Below the pieces are notes generated by a model that worked only from the letters and a program-made list of their open reading frames with translations, had not been told where the DNA came from and searched no databases. From a virus (taxonomy: Duplodnaviria > Caudoviricetes): a stretch of 64,000 nt of DNA. The DNA lies in IMG/VR virus record IMGVR_UViG_3300032038_000001, positions 32,001 to 96,000 of that record. One strand, written 5' to 3'. The translations under genes were made by a program, and so were the position numbers. Shown piece after piece: positions 17,533 to 59,654 of the stretch (the first letter of the stretch is position 1; every line of letters begins with the position of its first letter).

Positions 17533-17605
17533 GCGTCATTAGCTCATCTGGCAGAGCACAAAACTTTTAATTTTGGGGTACGGGGTTCGAGTCCCCGATG
17601 ACGCA
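17533..17605 (+). tRNA. tRNA-Lys(TTT)
   Basis: GCGTCAT/ATGACGC acceptor stem, CAAAA-CTTTTAA-TTTTG anticodon arm, GTTCGAG T-loop; no encoded CCA. Confidence 0.93.
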
Positions 17606-17609
17606 TTAA

Positions 17610-17695
17610 GGAGAAGTACCCAAGTGGTTGAAGGGTCTGGTCTTGAAAACCAGTAGGCTGTAACAGGTGCAAGGGTTCGAATCCCTTCTTCTCCG
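17610..17695 (+). tRNA. tRNA-Ser(TGA)
   Basis: GGAGAAG/CTTCTCC acceptor stem, CTGGT-CTTGAAA-ACCAG anticodon arm, long variable arm. Confidence 0.93.
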
Positions 17696-23835: not shown

Positions 23836-25965
23836 TTATTGTATAAAAGTCTTCTTTATATATTCTTTATAGTCATTAACTCCAACTATTGGAATATTAT
23901 ATTTCTTAGCTTTTTCAACTTTAGAAGACTCTACACCAATGACCGGAACTACTAGAACTGATGTGTCTTTAGTAAGGCTATCTTTAACCTCCCCACCATT
24001 TTCAACAGTCCACTGCTCAAGTTCTTTATCTCTTACCTTAGTGAAAACTACTGAAAATCTTGAACCAGACTTTTTGTCTTCTAGTAATATCAGTTCATTT
24101 TCAAGAAATTCTATCAGTTTCTCATTATCTCTAACACCATCAATTATTTTTCGAGCTGTTTTATCTTTTATACCTGGTATAACAGTAAGAACCGCTACAG
24201 CTTTTTCTGGTTTATCATCAAGAGATAACTCTAACAGGTCATCAAATGAAATCATACTAAATACTTTCTCAAATGTTTTAGTAGATACTCCTTCAATACC
24301 AAGAGAACCTAACATCTGAGAATTTGGTACTTCTTTATGTGCATTGATTTCATTGATAAACAAATCAACACTCCTACTACCAAACCCATCAAGTTTTTCA
24401 ATTTTCTTTCTATGCTTTTCAAGCTTATAGATATCCTCAATTTTTTCAAGATACCCTTGTTCATAAAGGGCATCTACTGTCGCATATGATATACCATCTA
24501 TATGCATTTTATTAAAATAATTGAGAATTCTACCTTTTATTTTACAGGGGCATTTTGGATTATTGCAAAACATAATGTCTCCACTTTCAGATGTTTCAAG
24601 TGGTTCCATACACTCTGGGCAACACCACGGTAACTCTATTGGTTCATTTCCTGATTTTTTACACTTAGGGTCATTCGGGTCAAATACAATATATGGAATT
24701 ATATCATATAATACTTTTACCTTATCACCCTTAGCAAGACTAAGATCTTTAAATCTTCCCATAGAACCAAGAGATACGTTTTCTATTGTGTTACCTTTAA
24801 GCTTAATAGGTTTAATTTCAGCAACAGGATTTATTCTACCAAATAGCCCAGCTGTAAATTTTATATTCTTTATCTTTGAATATCCAACTTCTTCAGTAAA
24901 CTTATAAGCAACTTCAAATTTTTGTTTATTATCAGACCTACCAAGTATCTTCTGAATTTCAGGATTAATGATATATATTACCATACCATCACATCTTAGA
25001 CCATTGGTATATTTGTGATCAAATGCAAACTTTCGCATAGCTTCTCTATCAGAAAGTCTGCATCTTAAATATGGAGTATTAAATGCTCCAGGAGCTAACT
25101 CTTGTAACGATTCAACTTTACCATATTTTTCATCAGGTACAAGCTTGGAATATCTGAGTTGCATTATCTGTAAATAATTAACTCGATCATCAACTTCATC
25201 AGAATTTAGTATACTCGATACTATCGACCGTGACTGTTTATAGTCAGTATGATATTCTTTATTATATCTTTCAAAGTCTTCATCTGACATCATTATCTCT
25301 GTTTTAATGCCATATTCAGTATCCATTTCAGGACCTTTGTCAACCCAATTAAATATATGCGTTATATCTTGAGCTTCATTTGTCTCAGTGAATCCTCTTG
25401 TTAATACTCTCTGGAGATAACCGTCCTTTGAATATTCAAATATAGCAGACACACCATCAAACTTAGGAAAACAGTAAATTTCTTCATCTGAAAGATTTAC
25501 CTGTTCACCAGTTTTCGAGAATATCTTTGCTTCAGATGATTTAATCCAGTCATCAAGAGTTCTTCTACTTTTATTCTCAAGATTATCTTCATCAGTCAAC
25601 GCATATACCTTATCAAGTGTACCTCTAAGAGATGGATACTTATGATATCCAACTTTTCCATTTGTAACAATGGGAACAGTTATACCAAGAGTATCATCAA
25701 CCTGTGATAACATTTCATAAATCTTGTCATACTCCGAATCTGTCATACCTGTTTCTTCGCCTGAATAATTGTAAATCGTCTGAGCGCAGTCAACCAGTAC
25801 CTTCACATTGCTTACGTCTTCATGAGGTATTTCATCAAATTCAAGTGTTTTTTCAATCTCTTCACGTACCTCAGTTGATTTCATTAAATCAATAAGGTCA
25901 CTTAATTTTTCTGGATGACTCGAAACCTCACTTTCAAGTTTCTGCAGTTTGTCAAAAATATACAT
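23836..25965 (-). CDS. ligA: NAD-dependent DNA ligase
   Basis: PKFDG, TRG, DGMV, AYKF, OB fold, CPEC..C..C zinc finger, HhH repeats, BRCT; start MYIFDK after AAGGAG. Confidence 0.93.
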   Translation of the reverse strand: MYIFDKLQKLESEVSSHPEKLSDLIDLMKSTEVREEIEKTLEFDEIPHEDVSNVKVLVDCAQTIYNYSGEETGMTDSEYDKIYEMLSQVDDTLGITVPIVTNGKVGYHKYPSLRGTLDKVYALTDEDNLENKSRRTLDDWIKSSEAKIFSKTGEQVNLSDEEIYCFPKFDGVSAIFEYSKDGYLQRVLTRGFTETNEAQDITHIFNWVDKGPEMDTEYGIKTEIMMSDEDFERYNKEYHTDYKQSRSIVSSILNSDEVDDRVNYLQIMQLRYSKLVPDEKYGKVESLQELAPGAFNTPYLRCRLSDREAMRKFAFDHKYTNGLRCDGMVIYIINPEIQKILGRSDNKQKFEVAYKFTEEVGYSKIKNIKFTAGLFGRINPVAEIKPIKLKGNTIENVSLGSMGRFKDLSLAKGDKVKVLYDIIPYIVFDPNDPKCKKSGNEPIELPWCCPECMEPLETSESGDIMFCNNPKCPCKIKGRILNYFNKMHIDGISYATVDALYEQGYLEKIEDIYKLEKHRKKIEKLDGFGSRSVDLFINEINAHKEVPNSQMLGSLGIEGVSTKTFEKVFSMISFDDLLELSLDDKPEKAVAVLTVIPGIKDKTARKIIDGVRDNEKLIEFLENELILLEDKKSGSRFSVVFTKVRDKELEQWTVENGGEVKDSLTKDTSVLVVPVIGVESSKVEKAKKYNIPIVGVNDYKEYIKKTFIQ

Positions 25966-26078
25966 ACTAATACTCCTTTCAAAAAATTTTTTTATAAGTA
26001 TGATTATATGAAAAATAATATATAATAGTAAAAAAGAAGCTGGCACTGTTATATCTCAACAGTGCCAGCTTAAAAGAA

Positions 26079-28412
26079 TTACATAAATTTGCCAGTAAAC
26101 TCATCCAGCATAAATGGTGTTAATATCTTTTTATCAGTAGGATATTTATCCGGCTGATCGGTACAGATGAGATCAGCTTCTTCAGCTGTATCTACAATAA
26201 TTCCACGTGCGGGAGTATTGTACCTAATGATATCTGCCATGCTAGTACGATTTCTCATCAGCACTGATCTTACAGCATTTCGGATAGTACTGTGAGTTGA
26301 ATTTATATTTCTGGTTGCGCCCTGAACATCTGCAGTCATATCAACCCAGTATACTTCTCTATCAACCAGGTCTATGACAACTGGTATAACCGAAGTCGAT
26401 TCTGAGTTTATGTCCATGTTCATTTCAACCTTCTCAGGAATGAAAATAGATTTCTGATCAACTATATCGTTGTCAGTCATTTCCATATACCCTGCTCTTG
26501 AGTTGAATTTCTCAAATGGCATTGACGTAAATGAGTGTACTGTTATAATACAGTATCGGTAACCTGCTGTTACAGCCTTGTTGATATTAACATCAACAAA
26601 CTCCGTTGAACCAAGACCGTCCTCTGGTCCACCATTCACAATGTCACCACTGTGGATACATATATAATTATTGTCACTATCTCTTAGCCTCATATTAGTA
26701 TAGTTTACATACTCAATCACTTTTGGCTTGTCGAGACTATCAATGAAGATTGCAGATAAATCTTCATCAACTCTTATCTCACAGCCAGTATCATCATTAT
26801 AGTTCGTCCACCAACAGAACGACCTTAAAATGTTTGTGTCTGGTTTGAGTTTCCATTTGCTTCCTCTAGTACAAGGTCGCATGCTATCGCTAGCAGATCT
26901 CTGGCTGAAGGGTACAATATACCCTTCGAAACTGGGATCTATATAGATACCACCTATATAAGGTTTTCCCATATTTCTCATTTTAAGAACCAATGAATTA
27001 ATTCTAATTATGTCCTTACATATACTAGAATCAATTGGTGTCATTGTATTCTCTATTGAAAATACCTTTGAGATATCTCCTTTTATGATAAAATCTCGCA
27101 TGGGTTTATTTTCCATACGATCTTTAAAATGATCTGTTATCTGGTATAGCATCAGGCTAGGTAAGTCTTCAATTATATCTCGATAAATTGATAACACTTC
27201 TCTTTTTTCTTCGATAGAAGAATTCGAGAGCTTTGAAAGAAGTCTGTCTAAAGACCTTCCAAGCATGCCAGGTCTGGTCTTGAGTTCATTAGCAGCAGCA
27301 ATAATCTGACCATTATTGATGAGTTTTTCAACTTGAGAATTGAAGCTTTCAGGTCTCTTACCATTTCTAATTGATGAGAAAGCCCTTACCGCACCCGTGT
27401 AGATATTGATATATTTACCTGGGTGAATTTTTTCACCAACACGTTTCCAGATTTCTGGGTAACGCCACATATCATCTATGACGTTATAGATATTCTTTTG
27501 GCACAGATTATTCAACGCGTTCATTAAAAATCGATATTCTCGATTTTTGAGGTTTACAAACCTCGTCTTCTTACTAAGACTTACATCTCCTCCAGAAAGT
27601 GCAACGTAAAAACGAAGAATATCTGTTGCAGTTTTGAGATTTTTCTCAACCTCAACAAAATTAATTTTATTATTTTTGCTGAGTTGACCAAGAACGAACA
27701 TTGCATTTTCTTTAAAAGGCATCTCTGGTAACACCATTGGAACATACAAATGTTCAATATAAAAGGCGATGAACCTCTTATCGTCATCAGACAATGAAAC
27801 TGGCGACGTTGATATGTTTATAAACATATCGTCGATCTCTGTCAGAGATTTTACCAATGAAATTCTCTTAAGAGAATTGAGTGAATTTTTAATAATGGTT
27901 TCAAAATCTGATGAGCGTTTTTCTTTTTCAGCTACAAGATAGCTGAGTCTTTCAGCATCTCTAGGCTGAAAGATTCCATCTGTCATATAATGAATTACGG
28001 CATTAAACAGTAATTCATCGTCAGACATTTCCATGACTTCGTACGGAAATCCTGGATACATCGGGATGTAAACTTTATCATCCCCGGTTATTTTTCGAAC
28101 CGTTTCTACAATGGATTTTAAAGCTCTACCTATGTCAGCAAGTGTCTTTTCACTTGCTCCATTATATTCATTGATGATAAAGTTATTATCATCAGGAGTT
28201 ATAATGTACCCCATTCGCATTAATTCAGCATTAGCGGTTGCCAGAACTGCTTCAATAGTAGAATTTCTGGCTTCTATGTTTTCCGACTTCTCGGGAATGA
28301 TAGGCCAGAAAACCGAACATCTTCTTTTCATAAGATGTTCATTTAATCTGTCCATAATAAATGGACTGTTAAAGTTAACATTAGTTCTTGTGTTTGTACT
28401 TGTTTTCATCAT
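26079..28412 (-). CDS. large helical protein with C-terminal TerD-like domain (Ter-associated, possibly Ro/TROVE-related)
   Basis: TATDILR, ..HPG, RPGMLGRSLDRLL in the helical part; DLSA, HSGDI.NG, EFVD in the TerD-like part. Confidence 0.65.
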   Translation of the reverse strand: MMKTSTNTRTNVNFNSPFIMDRLNEHLMKRRCSVFWPIIPEKSENIEARNSTIEAVLATANAELMRMGYIITPDDNNFIINEYNGASEKTLADIGRALKSIVETVRKITGDDKVYIPMYPGFPYEVMEMSDDELLFNAVIHYMTDGIFQPRDAERLSYLVAEKEKRSSDFETIIKNSLNSLKRISLVKSLTEIDDMFINISTSPVSLSDDDKRFIAFYIEHLYVPMVLPEMPFKENAMFVLGQLSKNNKINFVEVEKNLKTATDILRFYVALSGGDVSLSKKTRFVNLKNREYRFLMNALNNLCQKNIYNVIDDMWRYPEIWKRVGEKIHPGKYINIYTGAVRAFSSIRNGKRPESFNSQVEKLINNGQIIAAANELKTRPGMLGRSLDRLLSKLSNSSIEEKREVLSIYRDIIEDLPSLMLYQITDHFKDRMENKPMRDFIIKGDISKVFSIENTMTPIDSSICKDIIRINSLVLKMRNMGKPYIGGIYIDPSFEGYIVPFSQRSASDSMRPCTRGSKWKLKPDTNILRSFCWWTNYNDDTGCEIRVDEDLSAIFIDSLDKPKVIEYVNYTNMRLRDSDNNYICIHSGDIVNGGPEDGLGSTEFVDVNINKAVTAGYRYCIITVHSFTSMPFEKFNSRAGYMEMTDNDIVDQKSIFIPEKVEMNMDINSESTSVIPVVIDLVDREVYWVDMTADVQGATRNINSTHSTIRNAVRSVLMRNRTSMADIIRYNTPARGIIVDTAEEADLICTDQPDKYPTDKKILTPFMLDEFTGKFM

Positions 28413-28489
28413 TTTTTCATCCTTTCAAATTAGCTTACTGACTGTACACAATTTTTTAAGTCAGTAAATAGTTTGGCGTTTAAATAAAA

Positions 28490-28529
28490 AATAAACTGGA
28501 GAACCTGTGCACGGATTCTCCAGTTTATT
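28490..28529 (-). terminator. intrinsic terminator in the leader of the TerD-like gene
   Basis: ATAAACTGGAGAA/TTCTCCAGTTTAT stem followed by a U-tract on the minus strand. Confidence 0.75.
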
Positions 28530-28537
28530 GATAGTTT

Positions 28538-28730
28538 AAACTCATGTTTCATATTTTGTATCTTAAGCATTGAAACTAGTATATTCTTTTCATTTTTTTT
28601 TTAATTAGAAGGAAGTTTCAATATATTGATATTATGAATCATGAGTTAAACTTTTTGTAACCCACTTAAGCAAAAACAGTAGAATACAAATATAATTCTT
28701 TTTAGAAGGAACTGTTTTCATAGTGTGGGA
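28538..28730 (-). ncRNA. two tandem copies of a structured RNA element (stem-UCCUUCUAA...CU-stem-GCUUAAG)
   Basis: Copies at about 28538-28648 and 28661-28730; stems differ in sequence but stay paired, flanking motifs identical. Confidence 0.65.
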
Positions 28731-28843
28731 GGATTTATGAAAGAATATTTTCTTTCACTATTACCATAATATATTATATAATTAAAAGTAAAAAAGTGTT
28801 TTTCACTTTTTTGATTAATTTAATGTATATTTGTAAATAAAAA

Positions 28844-30076
28844 TTAATAATTAAATTCTTCTTCAGGAACTTCCATTTCTTCAGGTCTTATAGCTGAGAG
28901 TCTAGATTCAAGAACTGGTATAATATTAGAATAAAGAATATTATACAATTCTCTATTATCTTTAAAATCTTGATGCATCCCCTTAAGAGTGAATTTATTA
29001 TCTTTATTATCAGCAAAATAATAACCGTTTCTATTACCACCAAGAATACCTATTTCTTTTGCATAATTTACCGATGACCTCAATGAATCTATTCCTCGTA
29101 CTTTATCATATATAAGAGGTACAGTTTGTCCGGCTTGGTTAGTTCTAGATTTTATTATTTCGAGCCTTACACCAAAACCATCAAATCCATCATCTTCAAG
29201 TGTATATTTTTCACTACCTACTGCTACAAACTTAATTAAGATATGAGCCAAAAACTGCGGTGTTTTTCCTCCTGGTAAAGCCTCGTCTTGTTTTAAATAA
29301 AGCATTTCAGACGGTGTTTTAGTAATACCCATTCCAGGATTTGTTTTTATCTGATTAATGGCTATGAGTGTAATATTTGCAGTTCTTATATATGGAAGAA
29401 TTTCATTAAAAAATCTTCCTATCTCACCAGTAAGTCTCATTCTATCAGTCTGAGTTCCTATTTCTTCAAGTTTGGCTAATTCTTTTTTATCATTTTCATT
29501 GAGACTCATAGTAATGGTCGCTATGGAATCAAGTATAATAACGGTTGGTTCATATAGTGTTATCTCTTCACCAAACTCATTAAGTTTACCTGTTTTATAC
29601 TTATATTTATCAGGATTACTTGTTTTCTCCATATATACATCCATTATTGTTTTTTTCATATCTTCAAGTGTTGTTTTTTCCTGCCTAAGAATATATTTAC
29701 CCTGAGCCATCTCAGACATGTTAAATCTTGTAAGAGCTTGAATACGTGTATAATTTAATGCCTGTTCAAGGTCAAAATGAATAACTATACCATTATCAAA
29801 ACCTCTTACTATATTAGCTGCTATCTGAATAGCAGTTGTTGTCTTAGAAGTTGACGGCTTACCGATAAATTCGATATAAGATCCTGCTGTAATACCTATT
29901 GATGGATATGTGTCAATCAACGAATTATCATCATTAAAAACATTCACTTTATATCCAAGGTAATAATCAAGGACTGGAAATCCTGTCTTATACGAAATTA
30001 CAGACGCGTTACAGTCAAAATAATTTGTTTTCTTCCCAGTACTTCTAAGTGCTTCAACTAAAAAATTTTTTCCCAT
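28844..30076 (-). CDS. RecA/UvsX-like recombinase
   Basis: GKPSTSKTT Walker A variant, DLEQA, IILDSIA, INQI, PGG, KSR. Confidence 0.85.
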   Translation of the reverse strand: MGKNFLVEALRSTGKKTNYFDCNASVISYKTGFPVLDYYLGYKVNVFNDDNSLIDTYPSIGITAGSYIEFIGKPSTSKTTTAIQIAANIVRGFDNGIVIHFDLEQALNYTRIQALTRFNMSEMAQGKYILRQEKTTLEDMKKTIMDVYMEKTSNPDKYKYKTGKLNEFGEEITLYEPTVIILDSIATITMSLNENDKKELAKLEEIGTQTDRMRLTGEIGRFFNEILPYIRTANITLIAINQIKTNPGMGITKTPSEMLYLKQDEALPGGKTPQFLAHILIKFVAVGSEKYTLEDDGFDGFGVRLEIIKSRTNQAGQTVPLIYDKVRGIDSLRSSVNYAKEIGILGGNRNGYYFADNKDNKFTLKGMHQDFKDNRELYNILYSNIIPVLESRLSAIRPEEMEVPEEEFNY

Positions 30077-59583: not shown

Positions 59584-59654
59584 TGGGGTATCGCCAAGAG
59601 GTAAGGCAACGGACTTTGACTCCGTCATCATCAGTTCGAATCTGGTTACCCCAA
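59584..59654 (+). tRNA. tRNA-Gln(TTG)
   Basis: TGGGGTA/TACCCCA acceptor stem, ACGGA-CTTTGAC-TCCGT anticodon arm, TTCGAAT T-loop; AACA-N6-TA at 59555-59566. Confidence 0.92.

What the first reader, a model, noticed from the sequence alone, without database searches (positions are those of the whole stretch)
26079..28775. Tandem covarying RNA elements and a terminator upstream of a TerD/Ro-like gene: candidate ribonucleoprotein system
Seen (minus strand, after an early-type TATATTAT at 28766-28773): two elements with the same layout. Copy B is AAAACAGU-UCCUUCUAA-..AAAGAAU..-CU-ACUGUUUU-UGCUUAAG, closed by CCCAC/GUGGG. Copy A is AUUGAAACU-UCCUUCUAA-..AAAGAAU..-CU-AGUUUCAAU-GCUUAAG, extended by AACUCAUG/CAUGAGUU. 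The stems differ in sequence but both pair perfectly while unpaired motifs are identical, which points to conserved RNA structure. A strong terminator (28490-28529) separates them from the 777-aa gene. Known: some Ter-system proteins are linked to Ro/TROVE-type RNPs, and Ro binds Y RNAs encoded beside it. Inference: these are Y-like small RNAs bound by the adjacent protein, or protein-binding sites of an autoregulatory attenuator.
Basis: partly seen in the sequence, partly recalled or inferred. Interest (0 to 1): 0.85.

Follow-up and report, generated by a model that had tools for sequence, protein, structure and literature searches.

The report
Y-RNA-like RNAs beside Ro60-like TerD protein
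Two small folded RNAs in front of a jumbo-phage gene belong to a large RNA family, absent from Rfam, that lies beside one protein family (a helical domain partly shaped like Ro60 plus a TerD domain) in phages and many bacteria, so the two probably form an RNA-protein particle built like Ro60 with its Y RNAs, though binding has not been shown.

Summary
Two tandem elements (28661-28729 and 28559-28631, minus strand) share one layout with different, fully paired stems, and a strong terminator (28490-28529) follows them before the 777-aa gene.

A covariance model built only from other phages finds both copies (E 1e-7 and 5e-6). It finds nothing else in the 250-kb genome.

The same RNA has a fixed "handle": P1, a CUA bulge, a 10-bp P2, UCCUUCUAA, a variable module, an AUUU bulge. 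It gave 338 matches in 80 phage loci and 144 matches in 76 of 80 bacterial loci. Every match listed is on the strand of a homologous gene, and matches lie upstream and downstream about equally often.

Some copies carry a permuted tRNA-like module that matches Rfam YrlA below threshold.

Best reading: trans-acting Y-RNA-like RNAs that partner the adjacent protein. Binding is inferred, not shown. A purely cis-acting attenuator is disfavoured.

I found no paper on this pair. This scan has noted the same system before on many other genomes.

The parts
28791..28815 (-). Terminator-like hairpin ending the upstream UvsX-like recombinase gene (28844-30076); it sets the 5' limit of the RNA unit
   Evidence: Sequence AAAAAGUG-AAAA-CACUUUUUU; inverted repeat I22; kept in relative L289; gene identity from PHROG 97
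28766..28780 (-).
   Evidence: Read directly; identical in L289; not called by the sigma-70 scan
28737..28758 (-). Small 5' hairpin (9-bp stem, 4-nt loop) ahead of copy B, possibly the 5' end of the transcript
   Evidence: Present in the MFE fold; kept in L289 with one change beside the loop
28661..28729 (-). Handle RNA, copy B: P1 CCCAC/GUGGG, 5' bulge ACUA, P2 UGAAAACAGU/ACUGUUUUUG, UCCUUCUAA, 21-nt variable module with a small hairpin, 3' bulge CUUAA
   Evidence: Model R1, built without window sequences, matches 28662-28728 at 31.0 bits, E 5.4e-6. The handle is identical in L289 while the module diverges
28534..28651 (-). Handle RNA, copy A: core at 28559-28631 (P1 UAUC/GAUA, AAUA, P2 UAUUGAAACU/AGUUUCAAUG, UCCUUCUAA, A-rich 27-nt module, CUUAA) inside a long outer stem
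   Evidence: R1 matches 28564-28625 at 36.9 bits, E 1.3e-7. MFE fold. Between window and L289 the outer stem shows two compensatory pair changes and one repaired mismatch
28481..28529 (-). Strong intrinsic terminator (16-bp stem, 8-nt loop, U tract) ending the two-RNA unit before the protein gene
   Evidence: Terminator scan: 3 found in the region against 0.1 expected; identical in L289
28435..28467 (-). 9-bp hairpin in the leader of the protein gene, just before the ribosome-binding site GAAAGGA (28420-28426); role unknown
   Evidence: Inverted repeat I20, 100% complementary; kept in L289 with a change that still allows a G-U pair
26079..28412 (-). 777-aa protein: N-terminal alpha/beta part (about 1-180), helical-repeat domain (about 180-480, Ro60-like arrangement), TerD beta-sandwich (about 525-717) and a C-terminal alpha/beta tail. 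The presumed partner of the RNAs
26031..26070 (-). Terminator-like hairpin after the protein gene
   Evidence: AGCUGGCACUGUU...AACAGUGCCAGCU followed by a U tract, read directly

Best explanation
The intergenic stretch is a small-RNA transcription unit: promoter-like AT box, 5' hairpin, copy B, copy A, strong terminator. It encodes two members of a large, apparently undescribed family of 'handle RNAs'.

Each RNA has a constant handle: helix P1, a CUA-type bulge opposite an AUUU-type bulge, a 10-bp helix P2, then UCCUUCU(AA). It also has a fast-evolving variable module. In this phage the handle is a lineage-specific variant, ACUA and GCUUAAG.

Inferred: the handle is the docking site for the protein encoded next to it, a helical-repeat domain arranged like the Ro60 ring and fused to a TerD domain where Ro60 has vWA. 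The variable modules, which in relatives include permuted tRNA mimics like those of YrlA, would present or recruit other RNAs or enzymes. On this reading the pair works like Ro60 with Y RNAs, probably in RNA (tRNA) surveillance or repair during infection or stress.

Shown here: the RNA structure, family membership, gene linkage and the TerD fold.
Inferred only: physical binding, separate transcripts and the cellular role.
For: 1. Membership. Model R1 was built from 26 RNAs of other phages. It finds exactly the two window copies (E 1.3e-7 and 5.4e-6; next best 0.86) and nothing else in the 250-kb genome.

2. Structure. In the seed alignment 97.1% of cells pair, against 60% in shuffles; 143 cells change on both sides against 44; the covariation score is 0.93 against 0.12-0.22 when partners are slid. 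On 112 distinct matches the figures are 95.4% and 573 against 173. The first P2 pair is U-G in 46 of these and U-A in 43, which fits RNA read from this strand rather than DNA.

3. Linkage.
- 338 matches in 80 phage loci, with every listed match on the gene's strand.
- In five whole phage genomes of 156-461 kb, 19 of 20 matches lie beside the gene.
- 144 matches in 76 of 80 bacterial loci from many phyla, all on the gene's strand.

4. Trans-acting. The best 150 phage matches are 81 upstream, 69 downstream and none inside the gene. Up to six matches lie in one phage genome. In the window a terminator separates the RNAs from the ORF.

5. Selection within this lineage. In an 89%-identical relative the handles are 100% conserved while the modules diverge, and copy A's outer stem shows compensatory changes.

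6. Y-RNA likeness. A long-form member matches Rfam YrlA at E 7.3e-6 through its T arm, closed acceptor stem and D arm. That is the build described for YrlA in PMC4201824.

8. Context. RtcB is a neighbour in 7 of 80 bacterial loci and a Thg1-like gene in 3 of 80. Phage copies sit among tRNA arrays.
Against: - No binding, expression or processing data exist.
- No sequence homology to TROVE: no Pfam hit in 21 homologues and hhalign probability 0.2% against a Ro60 alignment.
- The window's two copies have no tRNA-like module and lack the Ro60-binding motif GNCGAA. Rfam gives nothing for them.
- The seed RNAs were picked by a script that required pairing, which inflates the paired percentage. The slid-partner control and the blind recovery of the window copies mitigate this.
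- This phage has no RtcB, so a repair role is not supported by its own gene content.
- No promoter for the protein gene was found after the terminator. RNAs and mRNA may therefore share one transcript, which leaves room for a cis effect.
Confidence: 0.65

Rival explanations
1. Cis-regulatory leader. The two elements are operator sites in the 5' leader of the 777-aa gene. The protein binds them and controls read-through of the terminator at 28490-28529 (autoregulatory attenuation). No trans-acting RNA is involved.
For: - The elements lie upstream and are followed by a strong terminator directly before the ORF.
- No separate promoter for the ORF was detected.
- In bacteria most copies lie 100-400 nt upstream of the gene.
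- A weak AU-rich complementarity exists between copy A's P2 5' strand and the foot of the terminator (I9, 75%).
Against: - In phage relatives 69 of the best 150 copies lie downstream of the gene, and bacterial loci also have copies just after the gene.
- Arrays of up to six copies with different modules, some of them tRNA mimics, are not expected of an operator.
- The G+C-rich core of the terminator stem has no alternative partner.
Confidence: 0.12
2. Stand-alone decoy or mimic RNAs. The RNAs act mainly by themselves. For instance they could act as mimics of a tRNA anticodon arm or of whole tRNAs, soaking up host tRNA-targeting nucleases or tRNA enzymes. The neighbouring protein would only process, stabilise or sense them and would not form a lasting particle with them.
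For: - The invariant 9-mer UCCUUCUAA is identical to the 3' end of the anticodon stem plus the loop of tRNA-Arg(UCU) genes seen in L126 and L152.
- In long forms the 9-mer sits where the anticodon loop of the permuted tRNA-like module would be.
- Phage copies lie among tRNA arrays.
Against: - The 9-mer is not closed into a 7-nt loop, and a 9-mer identity can be chance.
- Strict co-occurrence with one protein family across phyla argues for a direct partnership.
Confidence: 0.12
3. Tandem riboswitch. Each element binds a small ligand, perhaps one related to the unknown ligand of TerD domains, and controls the terminator.
For: Tandem arrangement before a terminator; a short invariant unpaired motif beside conserved helices.
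Against: - Copies lie downstream of the gene about as often as upstream.
- The loop region is hypervariable in length (19 to over 100 nt) and in content, which leaves little room for a conserved pocket.
- The RNA is tied to one protein family rather than to a pathway.
- No Rfam riboswitch matches.
Confidence: 0.03

Closest known systems
Bacterial and phage Ro60 (Rsr) with Y RNAs, especially YrlA/YrlB (Rfam RF02553; Chen et al. 2014, PMC4201824; Thermus phage Ro60, PMC12135203)
   Same: - Small RNAs are encoded within a few hundred bases of the protein gene, on the same strand and often in several copies.
- Each RNA is a long stem formed by its 5' and 3' ends plus a variable module. In some members the module is a permuted tRNA mimic (T arm, closed acceptor stem, D arm); the YrlA model matches one at E 7.3e-6.
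- The protein's helical domain superposes best on Ro60.
- RtcB is an occasional neighbour.
- The system occurs in both bacteria and phages.
   Different: - No TROVE signature by Pfam or hhalign.
- The C-terminal domain is TerD, not vWA.
- An extra alpha/beta region of about 180 residues lies at the N terminus.
- The RNA stem lacks the Ro60-binding GNCGAA / GGUCCGA motif. It carries GGCUA...UCCUUCUAA...AUUUCC instead, or ACUA...GCUUAAG in this phage.
- All matches to the YrlA model are below the Rfam threshold, and the window copies do not match it at all.
- No canonical TROVE was found in this phage or in five bacterial genomes that carry the protein.
TerD family proteins of the tellurite-resistance (Ter) stress system (PF02342; PDB 3ibz, 2kxt, 2qz7)
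   Different: Canonical TerD proteins are single domains of about 190 aa in ter operons. Here the domain is the C-terminal half of a 700-800-aa protein with its own RNAs, and no ter genes are nearby.
NCBIfam NF041916, MXAN_6230/SCO0854 family RING domain-containing protein
   Same: It shares the helical and TerD core: E 4.6e-82, protein residues 353-740 on profile positions 385-757. Atlas structural neighbours include this family.
   Different: The score (276 bits) is far below the family cut-off (600). The phage protein has no RING finger; only one of 21 homologues had Prok-RING_4. No function is published for the family.

Membership tests
Handle-RNA family defined here (covariance model R1) | Significant match to a model built without the window's sequences | tested here: met
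   36.9 bits, E 1.3e-7 (copy A) and 31.0 bits, E 5.4e-6 (copy B). The next best match in 64 kb has E 0.86. There are only two matches in the 250-kb genome.
Handle-RNA family defined here (covariance model R1) | P1 and P2 helices supported by covariation | tested here: met
   for the family. The two window copies have different, fully paired P2 stems. Compensatory changes occur against L289 in copy A's outer stem.
Handle-RNA family defined here (covariance model R1) | Invariant UCCUUCU(AA) directly after the P2 5' strand | tested here: met
   Present in both copies. The seven UCCUUCU columns are 98-100% conserved in 112 distinct relatives; the AA that follows is less conserved.
Handle-RNA family defined here (covariance model R1) | GGCUA 5' bulge region and AUUUCC 3' bulge region | tested here: inconclusive
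   The window copies have (C)ACUA / AAUA and GCUUAAG in place of GGCUA and AUUUCC (alignment). The variant is kept exactly in relative L289, so it looks like a lineage-specific handle.
Handle-RNA family defined here (covariance model R1) | Lies next to a helical+TerD protein gene, on the same strand | tested here: met
   The copies lie 147-320 nt upstream of the 777-aa ORF on the minus strand. This is the same arrangement as in the 76 of 80 bacterial loci and the phage loci that have matches.
Y RNA / YrlA (Rfam RF02553) | Match to the Rfam model at its gathering score | tested here: not met
   There is no YrlA match for the window region even at E up to 10. A long-form relative reaches 37.2 bits against a gathering score of 69.
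Y RNA / YrlA (Rfam RF02553) | Ro60-binding motif GNCGAAN0-1G near the 5' end of the stem (PMC4201824) | tested here: not met
   The motif is absent from both copies. In the relative's YrlA alignment the stem columns are mismatched.
Y RNA / YrlA (Rfam RF02553) | tRNA-like module (T arm, acceptor-like stem, D arm) | tested here: not met
   The window modules are 21 and 27 nt with no T or D arm. Such a module is present in a minority of relatives: 18 of 112 are long, and 5 of those have a T-loop motif.
Y RNA / YrlA (Rfam RF02553) | Encoded beside a Ro60 (TROVE) gene | tested here: not met
   The neighbouring gene has no TROVE match. No TROVE gene is found in the genome.
Ro60 / TROVE (PF05731) | Sequence match to the TROVE profile | tested here: not met
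   There is no Pfam match at E up to 1 in any of 21 homologues. hhalign of the family against a 24-sequence Ro60 alignment gives probability 0.2%.
Ro60 / TROVE (PF05731) | HEAT-repeat ring fold | tested here: inconclusive
Ro60 / TROVE (PF05731) | C-terminal vWA domain with a MIDAS motif | tested here: not met
   The C-terminal domain is TerD.
TerD domain (PF02342) | TerD beta-sandwich fold and conserved acidic motifs | tested here: met
Transcription attenuator / riboswitch leader | Always in the 5' leader of the regulated gene | tested here: not met
   69 of the best 150 relatives lie downstream of the gene.
Transcription attenuator / riboswitch leader | Mutually exclusive terminator and antiterminator pairing | tested here: inconclusive
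   Only weak AU-rich alternatives were found (I3, I9), and none for the G+C-rich core of the stem. This was not tested by co-transcriptional folding.

The most novel reading that the evidence does not exclude
A second lineage of Y-RNA-type ribonucleoprotein particles, independent of canonical Ro60, exists in several hundred bacterial species across many phyla and in many large phages.

- The protein would be a Ro60-shaped helical ring fused to a TerD domain.
- It would dock onto a conserved RNA handle (GGCUA / UCCUUCUAA / AUUUCC, with lineage-specific variants that co-evolve with the protein).
- Swappable RNA modules, including permuted tRNA mimics, would direct the particle to RNA surveillance or repair, or in phages to countering host attacks on tRNA.
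Probability: 0.5. Interest if true: 0.85.

Novelty: new variant of a known kind. Interest (0 to 1): 0.72.

Why it matters
Ro60 with Y RNAs is the only known particle of its type. It matters for RNA quality control and for lupus and Sjogren autoimmunity, and its bacterial roles are still poorly understood.

A parallel system with a different protein architecture and a different RNA handle would:
- show that the "ring protein plus modular adaptor RNA" design arose or diversified more than once;
- give TerD domains, whose biochemical role is unknown, a concrete RNA-linked context;
- add a large RNA family to the catalogues (more than 480 matches in 160 loci here, none annotated);
- explain unannotated gaps beside "hypothetical protein" genes in cultured phages such as XacN1.

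It is directly testable in culturable hosts such as Paenibacillus, Priestia, Brevibacillus, and Xanthomonas with XacN1.

Tried and rejected
- **Rfam on the window region** at E up to 10, on the whole window, and on 15 relatives' loci: no family for the handle RNA. Only tRNAs, one tmRNA and one group I intron were found.
- **DNA search** of the intergenic region against 50,697 phage records: no match.
- **Exact pattern TCCTTCTAA..GCTTAAG in IMG/VR**: 119 or more single matches. A script found none with the flanking stems, so they are chance.
- **Close-relative search in IMG/VR** with the protein alone: nothing.
The upstream regions of the 88-93% identical proteins P0003-P0008 could therefore not be read. 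One 89% relative was reached through the metagenome scan instead.
- **A shared phage promoter word** around the TATATAAT box: not enriched in the window, 7 found against 5.9 expected.
- **Foldseek of the helical domain against PDB**: nothing at E 0.001 or better.
- **ESM Atlas**: only clusters of the same family.
- **hhalign against Ro60**: negative.
- **Conserved protein neighbours in 80 bacterial loci**: none. The recurring extra "families" were spurious ORFs overlapping the gene, mostly antisense.
- **Literature searches** for TROVE+TerD, SCO0854, MXAN_6230, Prok-RING_4 and TerD+tRNA-like: nothing on this pair. Two papers asked for by id were not held.
- **Rejected readings**: DNA-level repeat (strand-specific G-U pairs), CRISPR-like array (no constant repeat and spacer), self-cleaving ribozyme (no Rfam match, hypervariable core).
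Full report
**Setting.** The window is bases 32001-96000 of a 250,395-bp IMG/VR jumbo-phage record. On the minus strand a UvsX-like recombinase gene (28844-30076) is followed by a 431-nt gap. After the gap come a 777-aa ORF (26079-28412) and then an NAD-dependent DNA ligase (23836-26046).

**Observation.** In order, the gap holds:
- the terminator of the upstream gene;
- an AT-rich TATATAATATATTAT box;
- a small hairpin;
- copy B (28661-28729);
- copy A (core 28559-28631, inside a long outer stem 28534-28651);
- a 16-bp terminator with a U tract (28490-28529);
- a 9-bp leader hairpin and the ribosome-binding site.

Both copies read P1, a 4-nt bulge, a 10-bp P2, UCCUUCUAA, a variable module, the P2 3' strand, CUUAA, and the P1 3' strand. 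The P2 sequences are unrelated but fully paired. The joint pattern occurs twice against 0.00 expected, and nowhere else in the genome. The region folds far better than shuffles (z = -7.2). The one exception is 'AAAGAAU', which belongs to the variable module and is not conserved.

**The RNA is a family.** Homologues of the protein were collected and 80 IMG/VR loci were fetched with their alignment. Reading those loci showed the word CCTTCTAA again and again on the gene's strand, inside one layout: NNGG-CUA-(10 nt)-UCCUUCUAA-(variable)-(10 nt)-AUUU-CCNN.

A covariance model (R1) was built from 26 short forms, none from the window.
- On that seed, 97.1% of cells pair against 60% in shuffles. 143 cells change on both sides against 44. 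The covariation score is 0.93 against 0.12-0.22 when partners are slid by 1-3 columns.
- On 112 distinct model matches the figures are 95.4%, 573 against 173, and 0.88 against 0.11-0.20.
- The seed was chosen by a script that demanded pairing, and the second alignment is fitted to the model, so the percentages lean high.
- The blind test does not have that problem. R1 recovers exactly the two window copies (E 1.3e-7 and 5.4e-6; next best 0.86), and only those in the whole genome.
- The frequent U-G at the first P2 pair argues for RNA transcribed from this strand.

**Linkage to the gene.**
- R1 gives 338 matches at E up to 0.01 in the 80 phage loci. Every listed match is on the gene's strand.
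- In five complete or near-complete phage genomes of 156-461 kb, 19 of 20 matches lie beside the gene.
- The protein family is also found in 359 of the species genomes scanned. R1 finds 144 matches in 76 of the 80 best bacterial loci, all on the gene's strand. By record title these include Paenibacillus, Brevibacillus, Priestia, Clostridia, Planctomycetota, Armatimonadota, Acidobacteria, Saccharibacteria and others. Two of the four loci without a match have no upstream sequence.
- Cultured phages carry unannotated copies. Xanthomonas phage XacN1 has two upstream of ORF396, and a human-gut phage scaffold has four. Weasels2 and LpeD give weaker matches.

**Trans or cis?** Of the best 150 phage matches, 81 are upstream and 69 downstream of the gene, and none is inside it. 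A leader element would not sit downstream so often. Arrays of up to six copies with different modules also argue for separate RNAs. In the window the strong terminator ends the RNA unit before the ORF.

No promoter was detected between terminator and ORF, so partial read-through and some cis effect remain possible. The G+C-rich core of the terminator stem has no alternative partner.

**Evidence within this lineage.** A metagenome contig encodes an 89%-identical protein and has the same layout. R1 finds both copies there.

In the pairwise alignment the handles, including the unusual ACUA and GCUUAAG, are identical. Most substitutions in the RNA unit fall in the two variable modules. Copy A's outer stem shows two compensatory pair changes and one repaired mismatch. 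This is the pattern expected of a constrained docking handle with a free module.

**Likeness to Y RNAs.** About one in six relatives is long (over 100 nt). Several of these hold a permuted tRNA: anticodon-stem 3' strand, T arm, a 7-bp acceptor stem closed by a short loop, D arm, anticodon-stem 5' strand. Rfam's YrlA model matches one such RNA at E 7.3e-6 (37 bits, gathering score 69) through these arms only, and not through the stem.

This is the architecture reported for bacterial Y RNAs (PMC4201824). However, the Ro60-binding motif GNCGAA is replaced by a different handle. The window's own copies have short modules: a small hairpin in B and an A-rich stretch in A.

**The protein.** No Pfam family matches. 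PHROG 33734 has unknown function. NF041916, a RING-bearing family, matches at E 4.6e-82 but well below its cut-off and without the RING.

The AlphaFold model is good (pLDDT 84.8, pTM 0.83).
- In BFVD a phage TROVE protein has the highest probability among matches outside the family (prob 0.93, TM 0.34).

These values are within what helical repeats can reach by chance. Sequence tests are negative: no TROVE hit in 21 homologues and hhalign probability 0.2% against a Ro60 alignment. So the protein is Ro60-like in arrangement and not a demonstrated TROVE member, and TerD stands where Ro60 has vWA.

**Context.** No protein neighbour is conserved in bacteria. A minority of loci have RtcB directly upstream (7 of 80) or a Thg1-like gene (3 of 80). 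Weasels2 has RtcB 3 kb away. Phage loci are embedded in tRNA arrays. This echoes the rsr-Y RNA-rtcB linkage known for Ro60.

This phage has neither RtcB nor a canonical TROVE gene. Five bacterial carriers also lacked TROVE.

**Mechanism proposed.** The two RNAs are made as one short transcript, possibly processed further. The handle docks on the helical domain of the adjacent protein. The modules present or recruit other molecules. The particle would then act in RNA, probably tRNA, surveillance or repair, or in counter-defence. The structure, family membership, linkage and TerD fold are shown. Binding, processing and role are inferred. Confidence in the partnership is about 0.65 and in the repair role about 0.35.

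**Novelty.** I found no paper on this pair in the library searched, and Rfam 15 has no model for it. Earlier notes of this scan describe the same RNA-protein pair on many other genomes, with the same reading. These are not independent evidence, but my tests agree with them.

What this window adds:
- a diverged handle variant kept in its lineage;
- a clean promoter, two RNAs, terminator and gene layout;
- a negative profile-profile test against Ro60.

Noticed in passing
L126:5617 and L152:5296 (real tRNA genes) against every handle RNA: The invariant 9-mer UCCUUCUAA is identical to the last two anticodon-stem bases plus the 7-nt loop of phage tRNA-Arg(UCU) genes. In long-form RNAs it sits where the anticodon loop of the permuted tRNA module would be. 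This could be mimicry or chance.
   Followed up: partly
window 28435-28467 (-): A perfect 9-bp hairpin lies in the leader of the 777-aa gene, just before its ribosome-binding site. It is kept in the 89% relative with a change that still allows a G-U pair. Its role is unknown; a processing site or translational operator is possible.
   Followed up: partly
window 28589-28604 against 28480-28495 (-): The A10 run in copy A's module is complementary to the U tract of the terminator (88% over 16 nt). This is low-complexity sequence, and the run is interrupted in the relative L289, so the match is probably incidental.
   Followed up: partly
G004:C1:91499-91572 (-) (the phage genome that holds L133): One strong handle-RNA match (E 1e-11) lies about 46 kb from the helical+TerD gene and on the other strand. 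It was the only orphan among 20 matches in five whole phage genomes.
   Followed up: no
L245:2753-3991, L247:640-1377, L284:8621-9404: RtcB RNA ligase lies directly upstream of the gene in 7 of 80 bacterial loci. A Thg1-like 3'-5' nucleotidyltransferase is present in 3 of 80. Rhodococcus phage Weasels2 has RtcB 3 kb downstream.
   Followed up: partly
L122:1201-1469 and L136:1004-1406: A group I intron (90 bits) and a phage-encoded tmRNA (55 bits) lie within 1-1.5 kb upstream of the homologous gene in two IMG/VR phages, among tRNA arrays.
   Followed up: no
L282:3692-3858 (Xanthomonas phage XacN1, AP018399.1, upstream of ORF396): Two unannotated handle RNAs (E 2.5e-7 and 2.2e-4) fill the 500-nt gap before ORF396 in a cultured, published jumbo phage. 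A nucleotidyltransferase gene (ORF399) lies 1.4 kb upstream.
   Followed up: partly
window 23836-26046 (-): The NAD-dependent DNA ligase (adenylation, OB, HhH and BRCT domains) starts its Pfam matches at residue 164. The first 80-160 residues are an unassigned extension.
   Followed up: no
window 17533-17695 (+) and 59584-59654 (+): There are three phage tRNA genes: Lys-UUU and Ser-UGA in tandem, and Gln-UUG. Unlike in many relatives, they are not next to the handle RNAs.
   Followed up: no
BFVD hit H6SUA9 (Campylobacter virus IBB35): An uncharacterised 695-aa protein of a cultured Campylobacter phage is a structural relative of the helical domain (Foldseek E 6.9e-9). The family therefore probably reaches Campylobacter phages. 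Its RNAs were not looked for.
   Followed up: no
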